DNA of 64,000 bases from assembly GCA_000165345.1 (NCBI GenBank), contig CM000429.1, forward strand, positions 768,001-832,000. Reading direction: 5' to 3'. Position numbers: made by a program. Below are positions 35,901 to 44,900 of the stretch, piece by piece. The first letter of the stretch is position 1. Every line of letters begins with the position of its first letter.

Positions 35901-38900
35901 TCTTTATCAGTTTTGGCTTTTCCTGATTGTAAACATCTATGAACAGCTCCTCTAAGATCAATCGTTTTAGAAATAGCTCCATCACCAAATATTCCAATAC
36001 CTGAAATTTCAGCTGGTTCAAGTACTAATGGAAATGCTGAGCTAGATCTAATTATTGAAGGAATTATTGATCTTGGTGCTTCTTCATTAAAATAATAACT
36101 TAAAGCTGATTTAAAATGATATGCAAGTGCATTCCATTTGGGACCTTTAAATCTCTTTCTATTTTGTAAAAGATGTCTCATAAATATAAGCATAGGGTAA
36201 GTTGAGCATAAATAATTCGGTAATTTTTTGCCTTCAGTAATGGCTCTAAAAATAAATAATGGTGCATTTTTAGATAAAGTTTTTTTACAATCATGTACAT
36301 TTTTATGTGTAAAATTATTCCATATTGAAGCTCCTTCTGTAGAAAAATGAGTTGATTGGCCAACATGATAGAATTGACTCCAAATAGTATTTAAAGTACC
36401 AATTGAAACTCCTGATGTAACATCCCATCTTAATTTAATTCCATGATATCTATATATAAAAGCAAGTCCATTTATAAGCCCAGCAGAAAATGAACCTTTT
36501 GCTCCTCCTCCACTAACTGTTAATATGTAACATTTGGATGGTGAAGAATCTTCAAATTTTTCAGAGAATTTTGGTTTCAAATTAAATAATGTTTCAGAAG
36601 GAGCACCATCAATTACTTTATAAGTTGAATTATCATTATTGACATTCAAATCAGTTTCAATTTTTCCAAGTTGGTGGTTATTTTCATAATGATATGATCC
36701 AAAATTCATTAAATTGTTTTGTTGAATTGTTGGATTAGTATTGGTATTTTTTTTAGCCGTGTGATTAGTAATTTTTGTATAATTAATATTCAAAATATCA
36801 TTACATTGGTTATTTTGTGATTTCCCTAAATTATAATTATTAGCAAATACCAAGAATGGAATAGAGTACCAAAATAAAATATATGTTATAAGTAACCTTG
36901 CTGGTAATAACTGAAAGTACAATGGTGCTTTTAAAGTAAATAGTGCATGTTTTAATATTGGAGCCATTTTAGTTAATTTTAAATAATTATTCAAACCCTT
37001 AGAAACAAGAAAAAAAAAACATCTGAACGCCTTTAAATAACTTTAAACAAAAAAGATTAAAATGATTATTGCTTTAAAGACTATCAAGTTTACTTGAAAA
37101 GTTTAAATTATTATTTTTATTATTATTATTTTTGTTAAGTACCTTTGCAACCAATTATTCAACTGGACATTTTTTTTATTAATCCGATACCTTTTTTTTA
37201 GAATTTATTTATCATTAAACATTATGTATATATATGTTATACATATATTTAAACAATATATATTAAATGCAATATATTACACATTTGGCGCCAAAGTTTT
37301 GTTATTGAATAAATTACATAGAGGTTTCTCTTTTTTCAAAGTTATATAGATTTGGACAATATTAAGAAAATATGATAATATGGGAGATTACGTAGATAGT
37401 TATAATTTTTGAACGGTTTAATAGTACTAGATAAAAGGTTTGAAGATTATAATATGGATAAATAATTACGTGGTGAGATATAGGTATTAGTATTTATCAA
37501 AGATGAGGAAATATTAGGAGAGTATAGTTATTAATTTGAATGGAGATTTCTGTGATTCTTTTTTTTATTTTCCCTTTTTTTCTTCTCCAGATAATAAATA
37601 TTTCATTTCTAATTTTCAATGTGAAATCTCATACTTTTTAAAGTTATATTAATTTTCAGAATTAGTATAGTCAGAGTAATTCATAGTTTGACAATTTTAA
37701 CATTAATAAAATAAAAAATTTAGTTTAAGTGTTAATATAAATTATAAACAAATACAATATTACTAAAGTATCTTTAGTTACTTTTCTTTTTGAGCTTAGT
37801 AATAAGTTACTTAGTATATTTATATGTAAATGTGTGCAAGATAAAGAAATAAAGAGAAAGAAGATAAGGGAGAATGAAATAAAGAGGAATGAGCAAAGGA
37901 GTGGAGTGAATTATATTTATTTGTTAAGATAAAAATTCGGAAAAGAAATACTCATTTCTTTTCTTTTTTGAATTAAATATTTTGGCGGGAAATTGGGTCT
38001 AATATAAAGTCAAATAAAAATATGACTAATAATTTGAGAAAAGGTAAAATAAGGAATGAATTAGAAGGAGTAAAAAGAGGATTAGGAATACTTTGTAAGG
38101 TAGGATAATTAGTTTTCAAAAGACGGAGTATAAGTAAATATATTTATATTCATACATTTATATATATAAATATATATGGGGATTTCAAAAGCAGAGAGGC
38201 AATTACAATTTGTTCCACAGAGATATTTAAGAAGAGGAATATTTTCCTCTGTAGATTTGTCGAGTTCAATATATTCAGCTCTTCCAGAATCAGTATGTGT
38301 GGTTAAGATACCAGATGCTATTTCAAAGGAAGTTAATAGCTTGTTAAGTAGAGGAGAAAAGTTTCCATTTGGAATTCAACCAACACCGTTTGAAGACTTT
38401 CGTATTTTTGACATTTATTTACTTGGACAAGATTATGTAGGAATTTTGGTAGACCTTCCATGTAATATAGAGGTTTATAAGAGTTTAGATTGTGAGAGTA
38501 TGTTTAAATCAAATAACTTAAACCAAATGCTTTACATTTACGATGCAAATTGTTTACCAAAATGGTTTATTACTTCACAAGGGGTGAATATTTCTTCAAT
38601 ATACAAGGGACCTATGAAATCTAATATGATGTATTCAGATCAAACTTTCGTCTCTTTCATTAAATATTTAAGAGAATCACTTCATTGGGAATGGCCAGCT
38701 GGTTTACTTCCAGCAAGTAGAGGAGTGAGATCTAGAAAGTACAGAAATACTGAATTATTTGATATTGGAGAAGTTATTGAAGCTGAGCAGGAACTATTAG
38801 ATAGAGTTTCAATGCCAAGCCAAGATATGGTAACTATTGATGTTATTTCTACAAAAGAAATGGATGAACAAATTCATTTATTCAAGCATGAACAAAAGAA

Positions 38901-41900: not shown

Positions 41901-44900
41901 TATCCTATCAAAGTGACTCTCCTTGTTCAACTCTTTTTAGCCCTTCTCCTATTACTATATTTTTTTTCCTTCCCTGCAATTTTCTATTTTATATTCCTTG
42001 CGCACAATTTTCTAATTCTCACAGCCTATACATTTGGATAATCTTATAATGGCTCCATTTTGGCGGGAAATTCGGGATTTTTATATACGCATAATTATTG
42101 GTACCTTAATTGTAAAAAAAATACTGAAGATTAGATAAAATTGTGTAGTATATATTTGTAATTTTTGTTTAGCAGGATCAAATATTGAAGATTAATCAAT
42201 TGATGTATTAACCTATTTATTAAATAACTCAGAACATTTGTATGCAATTTATTTCAGTGTTTGTAAGAGCCCAGTTTGAAAATCCGACTTTATATTACCT
42301 AGAGCAGCCGAGTAAATATTTTAATTGGGATTAATATGTCAATATGAAAACCAGAGATATTTCCAGGTTTGCAATCTTACTACTTTTTGGAGTGTTTCTC
42401 ACTGTTTCCGAGGCTTCTGAAGGTCCTATAGAACCTTTGGGAAAAGATGACTTGAACAGGGAAGAATCTATTAGATACAATGGAAATGATAATAATTTAA
42501 TTTCTAATTCTCAAGCTGTCATATTATCTGATGGTGATATTGAGGAAGGTTCCAGCCAAACTTCCACATCTACAGATCAAGAAGGACATTCTGAAAAGGG
42601 AGAGAAACGTAAAATTAATTCGTTATTACCAAATACAGAATATTGTACAGAAGAATTAAGTAAGCTATTAGATTTTCACTCAATTATATCTTCTTCTTGT
42701 GGAGTAGATGCTTTAAAGAAAGTTGGAGGATGGTTGCACAAACATAGGAATTCTCTTCCATATTGGCCATCAATAAATATATCGCCTCCAAAAAATCGAA
42801 TAACATTTTATGGTTGTGATTGGACAATTTGTGAAAGAGAAGTTGAGAATCAGATTGATCAAAAGCTTAAGAAGCTGCATTTACCAGTTAAACAAATAGG
42901 AAATACAGTTCAATCAGATGCTCGTAATTATGATAGTGCAAAAAGAGCTATAGATATTCAGATTAGAAATGGAAATATGTCAAAGTGCGAATTAATTAAT
43001 TCTATTGGTATTTGGTGGTGTCAAAAAGCTCTTCCTCAGTTAATTACTGATAAAGAAACAGCATACCATTCGATTTTCAAAGAATTCAATATTCATTTTG
43101 ATCAGCAATCTACAGTAAGCGGAAGCACTTCTATGGGCGATATATCAAATATGGAAGACCAACAAACCAATGTAATTGTTGAAGAAGACCAAGAGTTAAA
43201 TAAGGAGGTATCAGATGTATTTACAATGGCTTCAAGCAACAATGGTAAAGTTAATAAAGATTTCTACAAATATCCAAATAGGCTAGTTTTTCTTAAAACA
43301 GCTTTAGAAGACCCTATGGAATGTTATATAATACAGCCAGAAAAAGACTATGAAGCTACTACAAATGAGCTTAGGGAAATTTTGGATAATGAAAGAAATA
43401 GACTGGAGTCAAATCTTGCTTTCGTTTTACAAATTGGAACATCAATATGGGGCTCAAATAAAGCATTTTCACCATTAGGAAAAATTACTAATTCTGTACA
43501 AAGAATTATCAGTACAATGAGAATATACACTGAAGAAATACGTAGAGACTTATTTAAGTTATTTCCACCAACAGACTCAAATTCTGAAACTGTTCCTCTT
43601 CCACCACATGAAGATCTTGTGATACTTATATCAGAGATTTGCCGTATTCAGTCAATTACAGATGCGATTTCTCTTGTTATAATTAAACTTCTCCGTAGAA
43701 ATAAGATTTCAAAGAAAGCTTCAGAAGATGCGGAACACTTATTAATGAACTGGATGTTTGCAGATATGAATATAAACAAATCCCTAATTCCTGTTACAAG
43801 ACCTGTCGTCACTAAAAAAAGCAGCCCATTATTTATAGAAAGAGCTAAAAGAATGAAAATTAACGCATCGAGGATCACCAAATTTATGAATAATATTGCT
43901 GACAAAGATTAGAGAATATTTACTTTGTCTTAATACTTAAGTCCTTGTATATTTTAGGTTGTTTTTATGTTTAATTAATACTCGTTATATTTTGATATTA
44001 ATTAACTTTCTTCTATTCTTTATTATTCTTCTTTTCCCATTCTTCTTTCATATTTCCAAATCAATTCTAAATTCATAGGTCAATTTTCATTGTAATTAGT
44101 ACTGAAATTGAATGTGATTCTTCCATGAACTCGAAACTAATTTCTGACAAATATTGATATTGCCACGTAATTCATATTTACATTTAGATTAGGCGGGAAA
44201 TACCTTTTCAATAATTGGTTTGCATGGCATACAAGAGAATAGAGCAGAAATAGTATAAGAGAAAAATATGGTAGAATTGGGTAATAAAATGAAATAAAAA
44301 AATAAGTAAATGAACAGAAAATATGAAATTCGGAAATTAAACAATAGTTAGTGTGAGCCTTAGAGTAGGTAAGTAGCCTGAAAATTTTGAAGATAGTATA
44401 GTACATAAGTGTTTTACATTTACAAAATTGATAACAGTAGGTTCAAAAGGAATTTTTCATAATTTGAAATATCTCATTAATTTACTACATATCAATGTAG
44501 TGGTAATATACATATAATAAACAGATTGGCGCCAAGCCTTAAATCACAATATTATAGTTATTCCCTTTGGAACTTAACTTGCATTACTCTGCTAAATATT
44601 TATTAATACTTTAATGTTATATTGGAATAAACATAGAACTTCCAAAAAATATACCTGATTATAATTTGCTCACTCATTCAATATCAGAGCGGATCTGATT
44701 AGCGACATCTCTAACATTTTTGATAAACTTTTCATCCCTTGACAGCTTGTATTTCTTAGATTTATGTGAACAGCAGGATTGCCTCTTTGAAGAGGTACAT
44801 TTCCTAAGTTTCTTTAAGTTTGATTCAATTTGCTCCTCAAGTGGAGACCAAATTCTGTTAGCAATGGATTGAGATTCAATTAAAATGATTGAAAATTCAT

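What the first reader, a model, noticed from the sequence alone, without database searches (positions are those of the whole stretch)
37978..42076. Near-identical 19-nt E2F-like box (ATTTTGGCGGGAAATT[GC]GG) in two different divergent promoters; GGCGCC boxes upstream of most genes
TTTGGCGGGAAA is the canonical E2F/DP site, and an E2F-like GGCGGGAAA / TGGCGCCA motif is known to be over-represented upstream of Cryptosporidium genes. Here the same extended 18-19-mer is used between the patatin-like PLP and TAF7 genes and again between the dynein LIC and a secreted-protein gene. GGCGCC-type boxes also occur at 8068, 11456, 12530, 29398, 37281 (perfect palindrome TTTGGCGCCAAA), 39372, 44195, 44526, 45775 and 46778-46805. 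This supports both the organism assignment and a shared cell-cycle-type regulation of these bidirectional promoters.
Basis: partly seen in the sequence, partly recalled or inferred. Interest (0 to 1): 0.5.

Follow-up and report, generated by a model that had tools for sequence, protein, structure and literature searches.

The report
Known Cryptosporidium E2F promoter boxes
The two near-identical 19-base boxes are real, evolutionarily conserved copies of the E2F-type promoter motif, which is already known as the commonest upstream motif in Cryptosporidium parvum, so this is a solid but ordinary finding.

Summary
ATTTTGGCGGGAAATT[G/C]GG occurs exactly twice, at 37979-37997 and 42057-42075, with none expected by chance.

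E2F-type cores (GGCGSS) occur 22 times in 22.4 kb of intergenic DNA against 1.3 expected. Coding DNA has 6 against 2.4, and hexamers of the same composition are not enriched.

Both boxes sit at orthologous positions in seven other Cryptosporidium species. Box bases are 71% conserved, against 38% for other intergenic G/C bases. They are functional cis-elements under selection, most likely E2F/DP binding sites close to the transcription starts.

Three parts of the interpretation do not hold:
- Only the roughly 13-nt core RTTTTGGCGGGAA is conserved. The 19-nt identity is specific to C. parvum and there is no homology in the flanks.
- The patatin/TAF7 spacer is 1.2 kb and has two separate boxes, one near each gene, so it is not a shared promoter.
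- "Cell-cycle co-regulation" is not implied. Published work puts this motif upstream of about 70% of C. parvum genes, which have every expression profile.

Three of the listed boxes lie in 3'-3' spacers. All of this is already described in the literature (2007, 2013, 2021, 2025). Interest is low.

The parts
37979..37997 (+). E2F-type box ATTTTGGCGGGAAATTGGG, about 190 nt upstream of the TAF7 (cgd1_3620) ATG
   Evidence: exact match. One search matches TTTSSCGC. The orthologous box lies 96-195 nt upstream of the TAF7 ATG in 7 species, and there is a GCGC-core element at 105 nt in C. muris. 94th percentile of conservation within the spacer.
42057..42075 (+). E2F-type box ATTTTGGCGGGAAATTCGG in the 442-bp divergent spacer, 161 nt from the DLIC ATG and 281 nt from the 522-aa gene ATG
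   Evidence: TTTTGGCGGGAAA is conserved in the chipmunk genotype, C. ubiquitum and C. canis. C. felis has TTTGGCGGTAAA and C. bovis/C. ryanae have TTTTGGCGGCAA. Conservation 0.97, 97th percentile.
42023..42108 (.). About 86-nt conserved non-coding block around the second box: AGCCTATACATTTGGATAATCTTATAATGGCTCC - box - GGGATTTTTATATACGCATAAT..TTGGTACCTTA
   Evidence: Alignments A1/A3. ACGYATAA and GGTACCT are kept as far as C. bovis/C. ryanae. There is no consensus RNA structure and no Rfam match. Indels and a stop codon in C. felis rule out coding.
37284..37295 (.). Perfect palindromic E2F-type box TTTGGCGCCAAA, about 320 nt upstream of the patatin-like gene ATG
   Evidence: Conserved in the chipmunk genotype, C. 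ubiquitum and C. canis at 205-273 nt from the patatin ATG. Top percentile of conservation in its spacer.
34160..36967 (-). Patatin-like phospholipase gene (cgd1_3610 by inferred numbering)
   Evidence: Pfam Patatin, E = 8e-12. Names from sources.
38176..39282 (+). TAF7/TAFII55 gene
   Evidence: Pfam TAFII55_N, E = 1.6e-13. Identical to C. parvum Iowa II EAK88298.1.
39664..41901 (-). Dynein light-intermediate-chain-like gene (cgd1_3630)
   Evidence: Pfam DLIC, 21.4 bits against a cutoff of 19.7. Orthologues also hit DLIC.
42344..43912 (+). 522-aa signal-peptide protein gene (cgd1_3640)
   Evidence: No Pfam match. Sources name it a signal-peptide protein.
39381..39388 (-). E2F-type half box GCGCCAAA, followed by TGCATGCA, in the convergent TAF7|DLIC spacer
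   Evidence: The orthologous position (about 100 nt past the TAF7 stop) has TTTGGCGCCAA in the chipmunk genotype, C. ubiquitum and C. canis, and GGCGCCAA in C. felis. 95th percentile of conservation.
44192..44200 (+). GGCGGGAAA box in the 761-bp convergent spacer between the 522-aa and 352-aa genes
   Evidence: Conserved in four other species. 98th percentile. No plausible ORF nearby.
44526..44535 (.). TTGGCGCCAA box in the same convergent spacer, 148 nt from the 3' end of the 352-aa gene
   Evidence: Conserved in the chipmunk genotype, degenerate in C. ubiquitum.
45782..45794 (+). Degenerate E2F-type box TTTGCGCGGTAAA, about 50-60 nt upstream of the 352-aa gene ATG
   Evidence: The orthologous sites read CGCGGGAA(A/G) in C. 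ubiquitum, C. canis and C. felis.
46781..46813 (.). Cluster of three boxes (GGCGCC, GGCGCC, CGCGCC) in the PITH|CHD1 divergent spacer, 130-157 nt from the PITH ATG
   Evidence: Box clusters lie at the same distance in the other species, but the sequence turns over.
29398..29407 (.). ATTGGCGCCA box, 116 nt upstream of the 445-aa gene
   Evidence: GGCGCCATCT is conserved in all seven intestinal-type species, and C. muris has ACCGCCATCT. 97th percentile.
11442..12599 (.). Two clusters of E2F-type boxes (11442-11491 and 12530-12599) in the RRM|TPR divergent spacer, one near each gene

Best explanation
The two 19-mers are independent, high-quality copies of the Cryptosporidium E2F-type promoter element. 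Its core is TTTTGGCGGGAA, which is TTTSSCGC read on the other strand.

The likely mechanism is as follows. Each box sits in the nucleosome-free promoter region, about 100-300 nt upstream of a start codon. There it is bound by a heterodimer of one of the parasite's two E2F proteins and one of its two DP winged-helix proteins. Binding helps to open or activate the promoter.

In the compact 442-bp DLIC|522-aa spacer, one box lies inside an 86-nt conserved block and plausibly serves both divergent genes. In the 1.2-kb patatin|TAF7 spacer, the 19-mer serves TAF7, and a separate palindromic box (TTTGGCGCCAAA) serves the patatin gene.

**Shown here:** presence, motif-specific enrichment in non-coding DNA, and purifying selection at orthologous positions across the genus.

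**Inferred:** the identity of the binding factor, the activating role, and bidirectional use.

The identity beyond the core (19 nt) is a coincidence of A/T-rich flanks in C. parvum, not a longer functional element. The boxes say nothing specific about cell-cycle co-regulation, because this is the default promoter motif of the organism.
For: **Presence and match**
- Two exact matches, none expected by chance.
- Both match TTTSSCGC.

**Enrichment**
- GGCGSS occurs 22 times against 1.28 expected in intergenic DNA, with 0 of 300 shuffles reaching it. Three control hexamer sets of the same composition are not enriched.
- Density is 2.17/kb in divergent spacers against 0.14/kb in coding sequence.
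- An unbiased 6-mer scan of intergenic DNA recovers GGCGCC, GCGCCA and CCCGCC, next to the known AP2 motif CATGCA/GCATGC.

**Conservation**
- Orthologous boxes sit at similar distances from the same start codons in the chipmunk genotype, C. ubiquitum, C. canis, C. felis, C. bovis and C. ryanae.
- C. muris has GCGC-core elements at the corresponding places. In that locus GCGC occurs 5 times in 3.2 kb of intergenic DNA and 0 times in 16.8 kb of coding sequence.
- Box G/C positions are 0.71 conserved against 0.38 for other intergenic G/C positions (Mann-Whitney p = 7e-13).
- 7 of 10 boxes are at or above the 94th percentile of conservation in their spacer.

**Literature**
- E2F-like motifs are the most abundant upstream motif in C. 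parvum (PMC3734150).
- C. parvum has two E2F and two DP genes (PMC12246861).
- The 2014 ApiAP2 study treats the E2F-like motif as the site of a non-AP2 factor and leaves it out of the AP2-bound set (PMC4117751).
Against: - No experiment has yet shown that Cryptosporidium E2F/DP binds these or any other sites (review PMC12246861).
- Transcription start sites were not available to me, so 'promoter-proximal' is judged only from distance to the ATG and from conservation.
- cgd1_3630 and cgd1_3640 share the second box but fall in different expression clusters, 42 and 43. One box therefore does not impose one expression profile.
- Conserved boxes also occur in 3'-3' spacers, where no gene is annotated.
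- In C. bovis and C. ryanae the box in the DLIC|522-aa spacer lies about 55 nt further from the conserved ACGTATAA/GGTACCT element, so the spacing within the block is not fixed.
Confidence: 0.72

Rival explanations
1. The boxes are functional promoter elements, but a factor other than E2F/DP reads them, for example a zinc-finger, Myb or untested AP2 protein. On this reading the resemblance to TTTSSCGC is only a resemblance.
For: The review PMC12246861 states that E2F binding has not been validated. In C. muris the orthologous elements read TAGCGCTA/TAGCGCAT rather than GGCGSS, so the recognised sequence is somewhat flexible.
Against: The full 12-mer TTTGGCGGGAAA is a canonical E2F/DP site. Cryptosporidium is the only apicomplexan genus reported to keep E2F/DP, and it is also the one with this motif dominating its promoters (PMC3734150, PMC12246861). 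The 2014 ApiAP2 study attributes the motif to a non-AP2 factor (PMC4117751).
Confidence: 0.15
2. The 19-mer is a specific extended element or a small dispersed or duplicated sequence. On this reading it marks these two promoters for a private, shared (for example cell-cycle) programme distinct from ordinary E2F-type boxes.
For: 18/19 identity with none expected by chance. All three GGCGGGAAA sites in the window are followed by T. There is a loose tendency for GGG/GAG a few bases 3' of the box across species.
Against: Identity stops exactly at the 19 nt. In the other species the same two promoters share only RTTTTGGCGGGAA, with 13-15 of 19 positions identical. The motif family is genome-wide and not tied to one expression profile (PMC3734150). 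The genes flanking the second box are in different expression clusters.
Confidence: 0.05
3. The GC-rich boxes are a compositional or structural feature of promoters in an AT-rich genome, for example nucleosome exclusion, and no sequence-specific reader is involved.
For: The boxes are islands of G+C in spacers with 25% G+C. Other GC-rich hexamers in the spacers are also fairly well conserved, at 0.62.
Against: Hexamers of identical composition but different order (GCGGCS, GGCCGS, CCGGSS) are not enriched. The exact core and the T-run/A-run flanks are retained across species.
Confidence: 0.05

Closest known systems
Cryptosporidium parvum E2F-like upstream motif family (Oberstaller et al. 2013, motif 3 [C/G]GCGC[G/C] and motif 4 GGCGGG; GGCG-core motif of Mullapudi et al. 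2007; noted by Bankier et al. 2003)
   Same: Same organism, same core, same upstream location. The share of genes is similar: 14 of 22 here, against 2,379 genes in 163 of 200 clusters in the published set. The window's intergenic 6-mer spectrum (E2F, TGCATGCA, C/G runs) reproduces the published motif set.
   Different: Nothing essential. These are two particular instances. What I add is their positional conservation across eight Cryptosporidium species, and the demonstration that only about 13 nt is constrained.
Canonical eukaryotic E2F/DP site TTTSSCGC (animal and plant cell-cycle promoters; TTTCCCGCC/TTTGGCGGG are the commonest forms in Arabidopsis, as cited in PMC3734150)
   Same: The sequence is identical to the plant/animal consensus, including the T-run and A-run flanks. 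It lies close to start sites in promoters.
   Different: In animals and plants the site marks a G1/S cell-cycle regulon controlled by Rb-family pocket proteins. No Rb orthologue has been found in Cryptosporidium (PMC3734150). There the motif lies upstream of most genes with every temporal profile, so it behaves more like a general promoter element.
E2F motif in open-chromatin peaks and bidirectional promoters of C. parvum sporozoites (Xiao et al. 2025 preprint), and upstream of antisense lncRNAs (Li et al. 2021, PMC7840661)
   Same: There is a single box in the short divergent DLIC|522-aa spacer. Conserved boxes in 3'-3' spacers fit the reported E2F-driven antisense/lncRNA promoters at the 3' ends of genes.
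   Different: I could not see the ATAC or RNA data for this locus. No lncRNA for cgd1_3610-3660 appears in the supplementary text held for the 2021 paper.

Membership tests
E2F/DP binding site (TTTSSCGC class) | Sequence matches the TTTSSCGC consensus | tested here: met
   Both sites read GCGGGAAA, which is TTTCCCGC on the other strand. The full 12-mer is TTTGGCGGGAAA.
E2F/DP binding site (TTTSSCGC class) | Motif-specific over-representation in non-coding/upstream DNA, beyond what base composition gives | tested here: met
   22 observed against 1.28 expected in intergenic DNA, and 6 against 2.39 in coding DNA. Control hexamers are not enriched.
E2F/DP binding site (TTTSSCGC class) | Purifying selection at orthologous promoter positions | tested here: met
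E2F/DP binding site (TTTSSCGC class) | The organism encodes E2F and DP winged-helix proteins | not tested
   Taken from the literature only: two E2F genes (cgd1_1560, cgd6_1430) and two DP genes (cgd7_3650, cgd8_1850), per PMC12246861. None lies in this window.
E2F/DP binding site (TTTSSCGC class) | Physical occupancy by E2F/DP, and an effect on transcription when the site is mutated | not testable with these tools
   Needs CUT&RUN, EMSA or a reporter assay. The 2025 review says no such validation exists.
Cell-cycle E2F regulon | Target genes share a cell-cycle-periodic expression profile | tested here: inconclusive
   cgd1_3630 is in cluster 42 and cgd1_3640 in cluster 43 of Oberstaller 2013. 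cgd1_3610/3620 are not in the truncated file. The literature reports E2F-motif clusters peaking at all time points.
Published C. parvum E2F-like upstream motif family | GGCGGG or [C/G]GCGC[G/C] core within the upstream intergenic region of a C. parvum gene | tested here: met
   Organism confirmed.
Bidirectional (shared) promoter | Short divergent spacer with a single shared regulatory block | tested here: met
   This applies to DLIC|522aa only: 442 bp, one box, one 86-nt conserved block. Shared use by both genes is not shown.
Bidirectional (shared) promoter | The same criterion applied to the patatin|TAF7 spacer | tested here: not met
   The spacer is 1208 bp with two conserved boxes about 700 bp apart, one near each gene.
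Dispersed repeat / duplicated segment | Similarity extends beyond the motif into the flanks | tested here: not met
   The repeat family D8 is exactly 19 nt.
Structured non-coding RNA (for the 86-nt block) | Rfam match or a conserved secondary structure with covariation | tested here: not met
   No Rfam hit at E <= 5. RNAalifold predicts 0 base pairs.

The most novel reading that the evidence does not exclude
The second box is only one part of an 86-nt composite core promoter (42023-42108). Its other constrained pieces, ACGYATAA and GGTACCT, are kept from C. parvum to C. bovis and C. ryanae and match no described Cryptosporidium motif. In addition, the conserved E2F-type boxes in the 3'-3' spacers (39381, 44192, 44528) would mark genus-wide conserved promoters of unannotated antisense or non-coding transcripts. 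A related possibility is that the preferred box sequence has shifted in the gastric species C. muris, from GGCGSS to TAGCGCTA.
Probability: 0.3. Interest if true: 0.35.

Novelty: already known. Interest (0 to 1): 0.15.

Why it matters
The finding confirms that this window behaves like the rest of the C. parvum genome. An E2F-type box is the default promoter element, and TGCATGCA (ApiAP2) sites mark many of the genes that lack it.

The useful additions are modest:
- These boxes are under purifying selection across the genus, including boxes in 3'-3' spacers.
- They supply well-defined, conserved test sites for the binding and mutation experiments that the field still lacks. Examples are the single box in the 442-bp DLIC|cgd1_3640 spacer and the two-box patatin|TAF7 spacer.

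The finding does not reveal a new element or a specific co-regulated gene set.

Tried and rejected
- **Duplicated segment or repeat.** Rejected. Identity is exactly 19 nt.
- **Conserved block in the DLIC|522-aa spacer as a small ORF starting at ATGGCTCC.** Rejected. Cross-species indels shift the frame, and C. felis has an in-frame stop (read directly from the sequences).
- **The same block as a structured RNA.** Rejected. There is no Rfam match and no consensus structure.
- **GGTACC as a general partner motif of E2F-type boxes.** Rejected. Across eight species it recurs in spacers essentially only at this one orthologous site, plus a few isolated cases.
- **A small gene in the 761-bp convergent spacer.** No plausible ORF was found.
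- **Expression, ATAC and lncRNA data for these genes.**
  - Only cgd1_3630 and cgd1_3640 were found in the truncated Oberstaller table.
  - No supplements are held for the 2025 preprint.
  - There are no hits in the lncRNA supplements.
  - No paper discusses these gene IDs in a relevant way.
  - A search for newer E2F/DP binding studies returned only the review and one unrelated paper.

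
Full report

Yes. ATTTTGGCGGGAAATT[G/C]GG occurs at 37979-37997 and 42057-42075, both on the + strand. No other site matches with up to two mismatches, and none appeared in 100 dinucleotide-preserving shuffles. A repeat search shows the shared stretch is exactly 19 nt and the flanks are unrelated (family D8). These are therefore two independent sites, not a duplication.

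**2. Organism and genes**

- Pfam confirms a patatin-like gene (34160-36967, -), TAF7/TAFII55 (38176-39282, +) and a weak dynein light-intermediate-chain match (39664-41901, -). The 522-aa protein (42344-43912, +) has no domain hit.
- Five of six proteins looked up are identical to Cryptosporidium parvum Iowa II entries. The 522-aa protein is named a signal-peptide protein by its sources.
- The window maps to an 881-kb chromosome record, CP029780.1, at about 773-837 kb.
- From the C. meleagridis locus tag cmbei_1003640 and the descriptions in a published table, I infer that the four genes are cgd1_3610, cgd1_3620, cgd1_3630 and cgd1_3640.

**3. Is the motif family enriched?**

I built a gene map from the ORFs and the gene calls of annotated assemblies. 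It gives 22.4 kb of intergenic DNA at 24.8% G+C and 41.6 kb of coding DNA at 33.5% G+C.

| Measure | Intergenic | Coding |
|---|---|---|
| GGCGSS, either strand: observed / expected | 22 / 1.28 (0 of 300 shuffles reach it) | 6 / 2.39 |
| TTGGCGSS: observed / expected | 10 / 0.23 | 2 / 0.29 |
| Control hexamers of the same composition (GCGGCS, GGCCGS, CCGGSS) | not enriched | not enriched |

- Density is 2.17/kb in divergent spacers and 0.14/kb in coding sequence.
- An unbiased 6-mer scan of the spacers ranks GGCGCC, GCGCCA and CCCGCC just behind CATGCA/GCATGC, the known ApiAP2 motif TGCATGCA, and low-complexity words. This reproduces the published C. parvum motif set.
- 14 of 22 genes have a strict E2F-type hit in their upstream spacer. 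A fifteenth, the 352-aa gene, has a degenerate box, TTTGCGCGGTAAA.
- The genes between 17.8 and 28 kb lack such boxes, and the spacers around several of them carry TGCATGC instead.

**4. Are the boxes conserved?**

A TAF7 protein search and contig look-ups gave syntenic 21-kb loci from the chipmunk genotype I, C. ubiquitum, C. canis, C. felis, C. bovis, C. ryanae and C. muris.

*TAF7-proximal box.* It is present 96-195 nt upstream of the TAF7 ATG in all but C. muris:
- GGCGGGAA in four species
- GGCGCCAA in C. felis
- TTGGCGCTCAA in C. bovis
- TTTGGCGCCCA in C. ryanae

*DLIC|522-aa box*:
- TTTTGGCGGGAAA in four species
- TTTGGCGGTAAA in C. felis
- TTTTGGCGGCAA in C. bovis and C. ryanae

*C. 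muris.* Elements with a GCGC core (TAGCGCAT, TAGCGCTA) sit at comparable distances. In that locus GCGC occurs five times in 3.2 kb of spacers and never in 16.8 kb of coding sequence.

*Quantified in five-species alignments of all nine spacers.*
- Box G/C positions are 0.71 identical to the C. parvum base, against 0.38 for other spacer G/C positions (p = 7e-13).
- Seven of ten boxes lie at or above the 94th percentile of local conservation.
- The three-box cluster near the PITH gene is kept in position, but its sequence turns over.

**5.

(a) *Only RTTTTGGCGGGAA is shared between the two promoters in other species.* Identity over the 19 positions is 18 in C. parvum, 15 in the chipmunk genotype, 13 in C. 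ubiquitum and 14 in C. canis (sequences). The 19-nt identity is therefore a C. parvum coincidence in A/T-rich flanks.

(b) *The patatin|TAF7 spacer is not one shared promoter.* It is 1208 bp, has no annotated gene in any species, and carries two conserved boxes about 700 bp apart. TTTGGCGCCAAA (37284-37295) lies about 320 nt from the patatin ATG. The 19-mer lies about 190 nt from the TAF7 ATG. Sequence from the 19-mer towards TAF7 is well conserved among the closest species, which is consistent with a 5' UTR starting just downstream. That last point is inference.

(c) *The DLIC|522-aa spacer does look like a single shared module.* It is 442 bp with one box embedded in an 86-nt conserved block, 42023-42108.

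(d) *Three listed boxes are in convergent spacers.* The boxes at 39381, 44192 and 44528 lie in 3'-3' spacers, yet are conserved.

**6. Mechanism**

TTTGGCGGGAAA is a canonical site for the E2F/DP heterodimer, by established knowledge that is also summarised in PMC3734150. The literature adds the following.

- Cryptosporidium is the only apicomplexan genus known to retain E2F/DP, with two E2F and two DP genes (PMC12246861).
- E2F-like motifs ([C/G]GCGC[G/C], GGCGGG) are over-represented upstream of 2,379 genes in 163 of 200 expression clusters, which peak at all time points (PMC3734150).
- A GGCG-core motif was already reported in 2007 (PMC1779779).
- E2F is the top motif upstream of antisense lncRNAs, which mostly arise at the 3' ends of genes (PMC7840661). 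This is the most economical reading of the boxes in 3'-3' spacers.
- The 2014 ApiAP2 study classes the E2F-like motif as recognised by a non-AP2 factor and leaves it out of the AP2-bound set (PMC4117751).
- Binding by Cryptosporidium E2F/DP has not been shown experimentally (PMC12246861).

I therefore put about 0.7 on "E2F/DP-bound promoter element". Constraint and enrichment are shown here. The binding factor and the activating role are inferred.

"Shared cell-cycle regulation" does not follow. The motif is the default promoter element. The two genes flanking the second box are in different expression clusters, 42 and 43.

**7. The 86-nt block**

It is non-coding:
- Reading from ATGGCTCC fails across species, because indels shift the frame and C. 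felis has an in-frame stop.
- It has no Rfam match.
- It has no consensus RNA structure.

Its ACGYATAA and GGTACCT pieces are kept as far as C. bovis and C. ryanae, where the E2F-type box lies about 55 nt further away. GGTACC is not a general partner motif. I read the block as a locus-specific core promoter, but its other readers are unknown.

**8. Verdict**

The claims of an extended 19-mer, of bidirectional use at both sites, and of cell-cycle co-regulation are not supported. The phenomenon is already well described for C. parvum, so novelty and interest are low.

Noticed in passing
window 42076-42108 (within block 42023-42108): Next to the second E2F-type box, the elements TTTTATATACGCATAAT and GGTACCT are conserved from C. 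parvum to C. bovis and C. ryanae. They match no described Cryptosporidium motif. They are not coding, show no RNA structure and have no Rfam hit.
   Followed up: partly
window 39381-39396, 44192-44200, 44526-44535: Conserved E2F-type boxes lie in convergent (3'-3') spacers with no annotated gene or plausible ORF. One is directly followed by TGCATGCA, and one is preceded by a conserved TTGCCACGTAAT. They may be promoters of unannotated antisense or non-coding transcripts. No such lncRNAs appear in the held supplements of the 2021 lncRNA paper.
   Followed up: partly
L011 (C. muris), spacers at 1854, 9384, 9896, 13339, 16080, 16922, 17304: In C. muris the orthologous promoter elements read TAGCGCTA, TAGCGCAT or ACCGCC rather than GGCGSS. 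GCGC occurs 5 times in 3.2 kb of spacers and 0 times in 16.8 kb of coding sequence. This may be a lineage shift in the preferred box sequence, but it rests on one locus.
   Followed up: partly
window 13691-13705: A perfect palindromic E2F-type site, TTTTTGGCGCCAAAA, lies inside the coding sequence of the 1500-aa TPR protein, about 725 nt downstream of its ATG. It could be chance, an internal or antisense promoter, or a mis-set start codon.
   Followed up: no
window 47197-47212: ATCAGCGCCTATGCTA lies about 135 nt upstream of the CHD1-like gene ATG. It is kept almost unchanged at the same distance in all seven species that keep this gene arrangement, including C. muris (AGCAGCGCCTATGA). That is deeper conservation than any E2F-type box here. 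It could be a different factor's site or part of an unannotated 5' exon or UTR.
   Followed up: no
window 7108-10390, especially 7427-7445, 8084-8100 and 9252-9258: An unusually long (3.3 kb) gene-free spacer lies upstream of an ApiAP2 gene (5437-7107, -). It carries a run of overlapping TGCATGCA motifs ((TGCA)n at 7427-7445) and further copies at about 980 and 2150 nt. This suggests AP2 auto- or cross-regulation.
   Followed up: no
window 17473-28033: A run of five genes (219, 925, 126, 267 and 212 aa) sits in the most A/T-rich part of the window (G+C 0.20-0.27). None has a strict E2F-type box upstream, and several of the spacers around them carry TGCATGC. This looks like a second promoter class.
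   Followed up: partly
window intergenic regions (e.g. 39396-39402, 46815-46820, 31320-31326): ACACGT is over-represented in the spacers, with 14 observed against 2.3 expected. It sometimes lies next to E2F-type boxes. I could not place it among the motif families I read about.
   Followed up: no
window 41960-42015 and 37840-37899: Each of the two spacers has a short imperfect tandem repeat: a 28-nt unit TTCCTTSCSCRCAATTTTCTA x2 next to the DLIC start, and a 30-nt purine-rich GAGA-like unit x2 upstream of the TAF7 box. The second is absent from the other species in the alignment.
   Followed up: no
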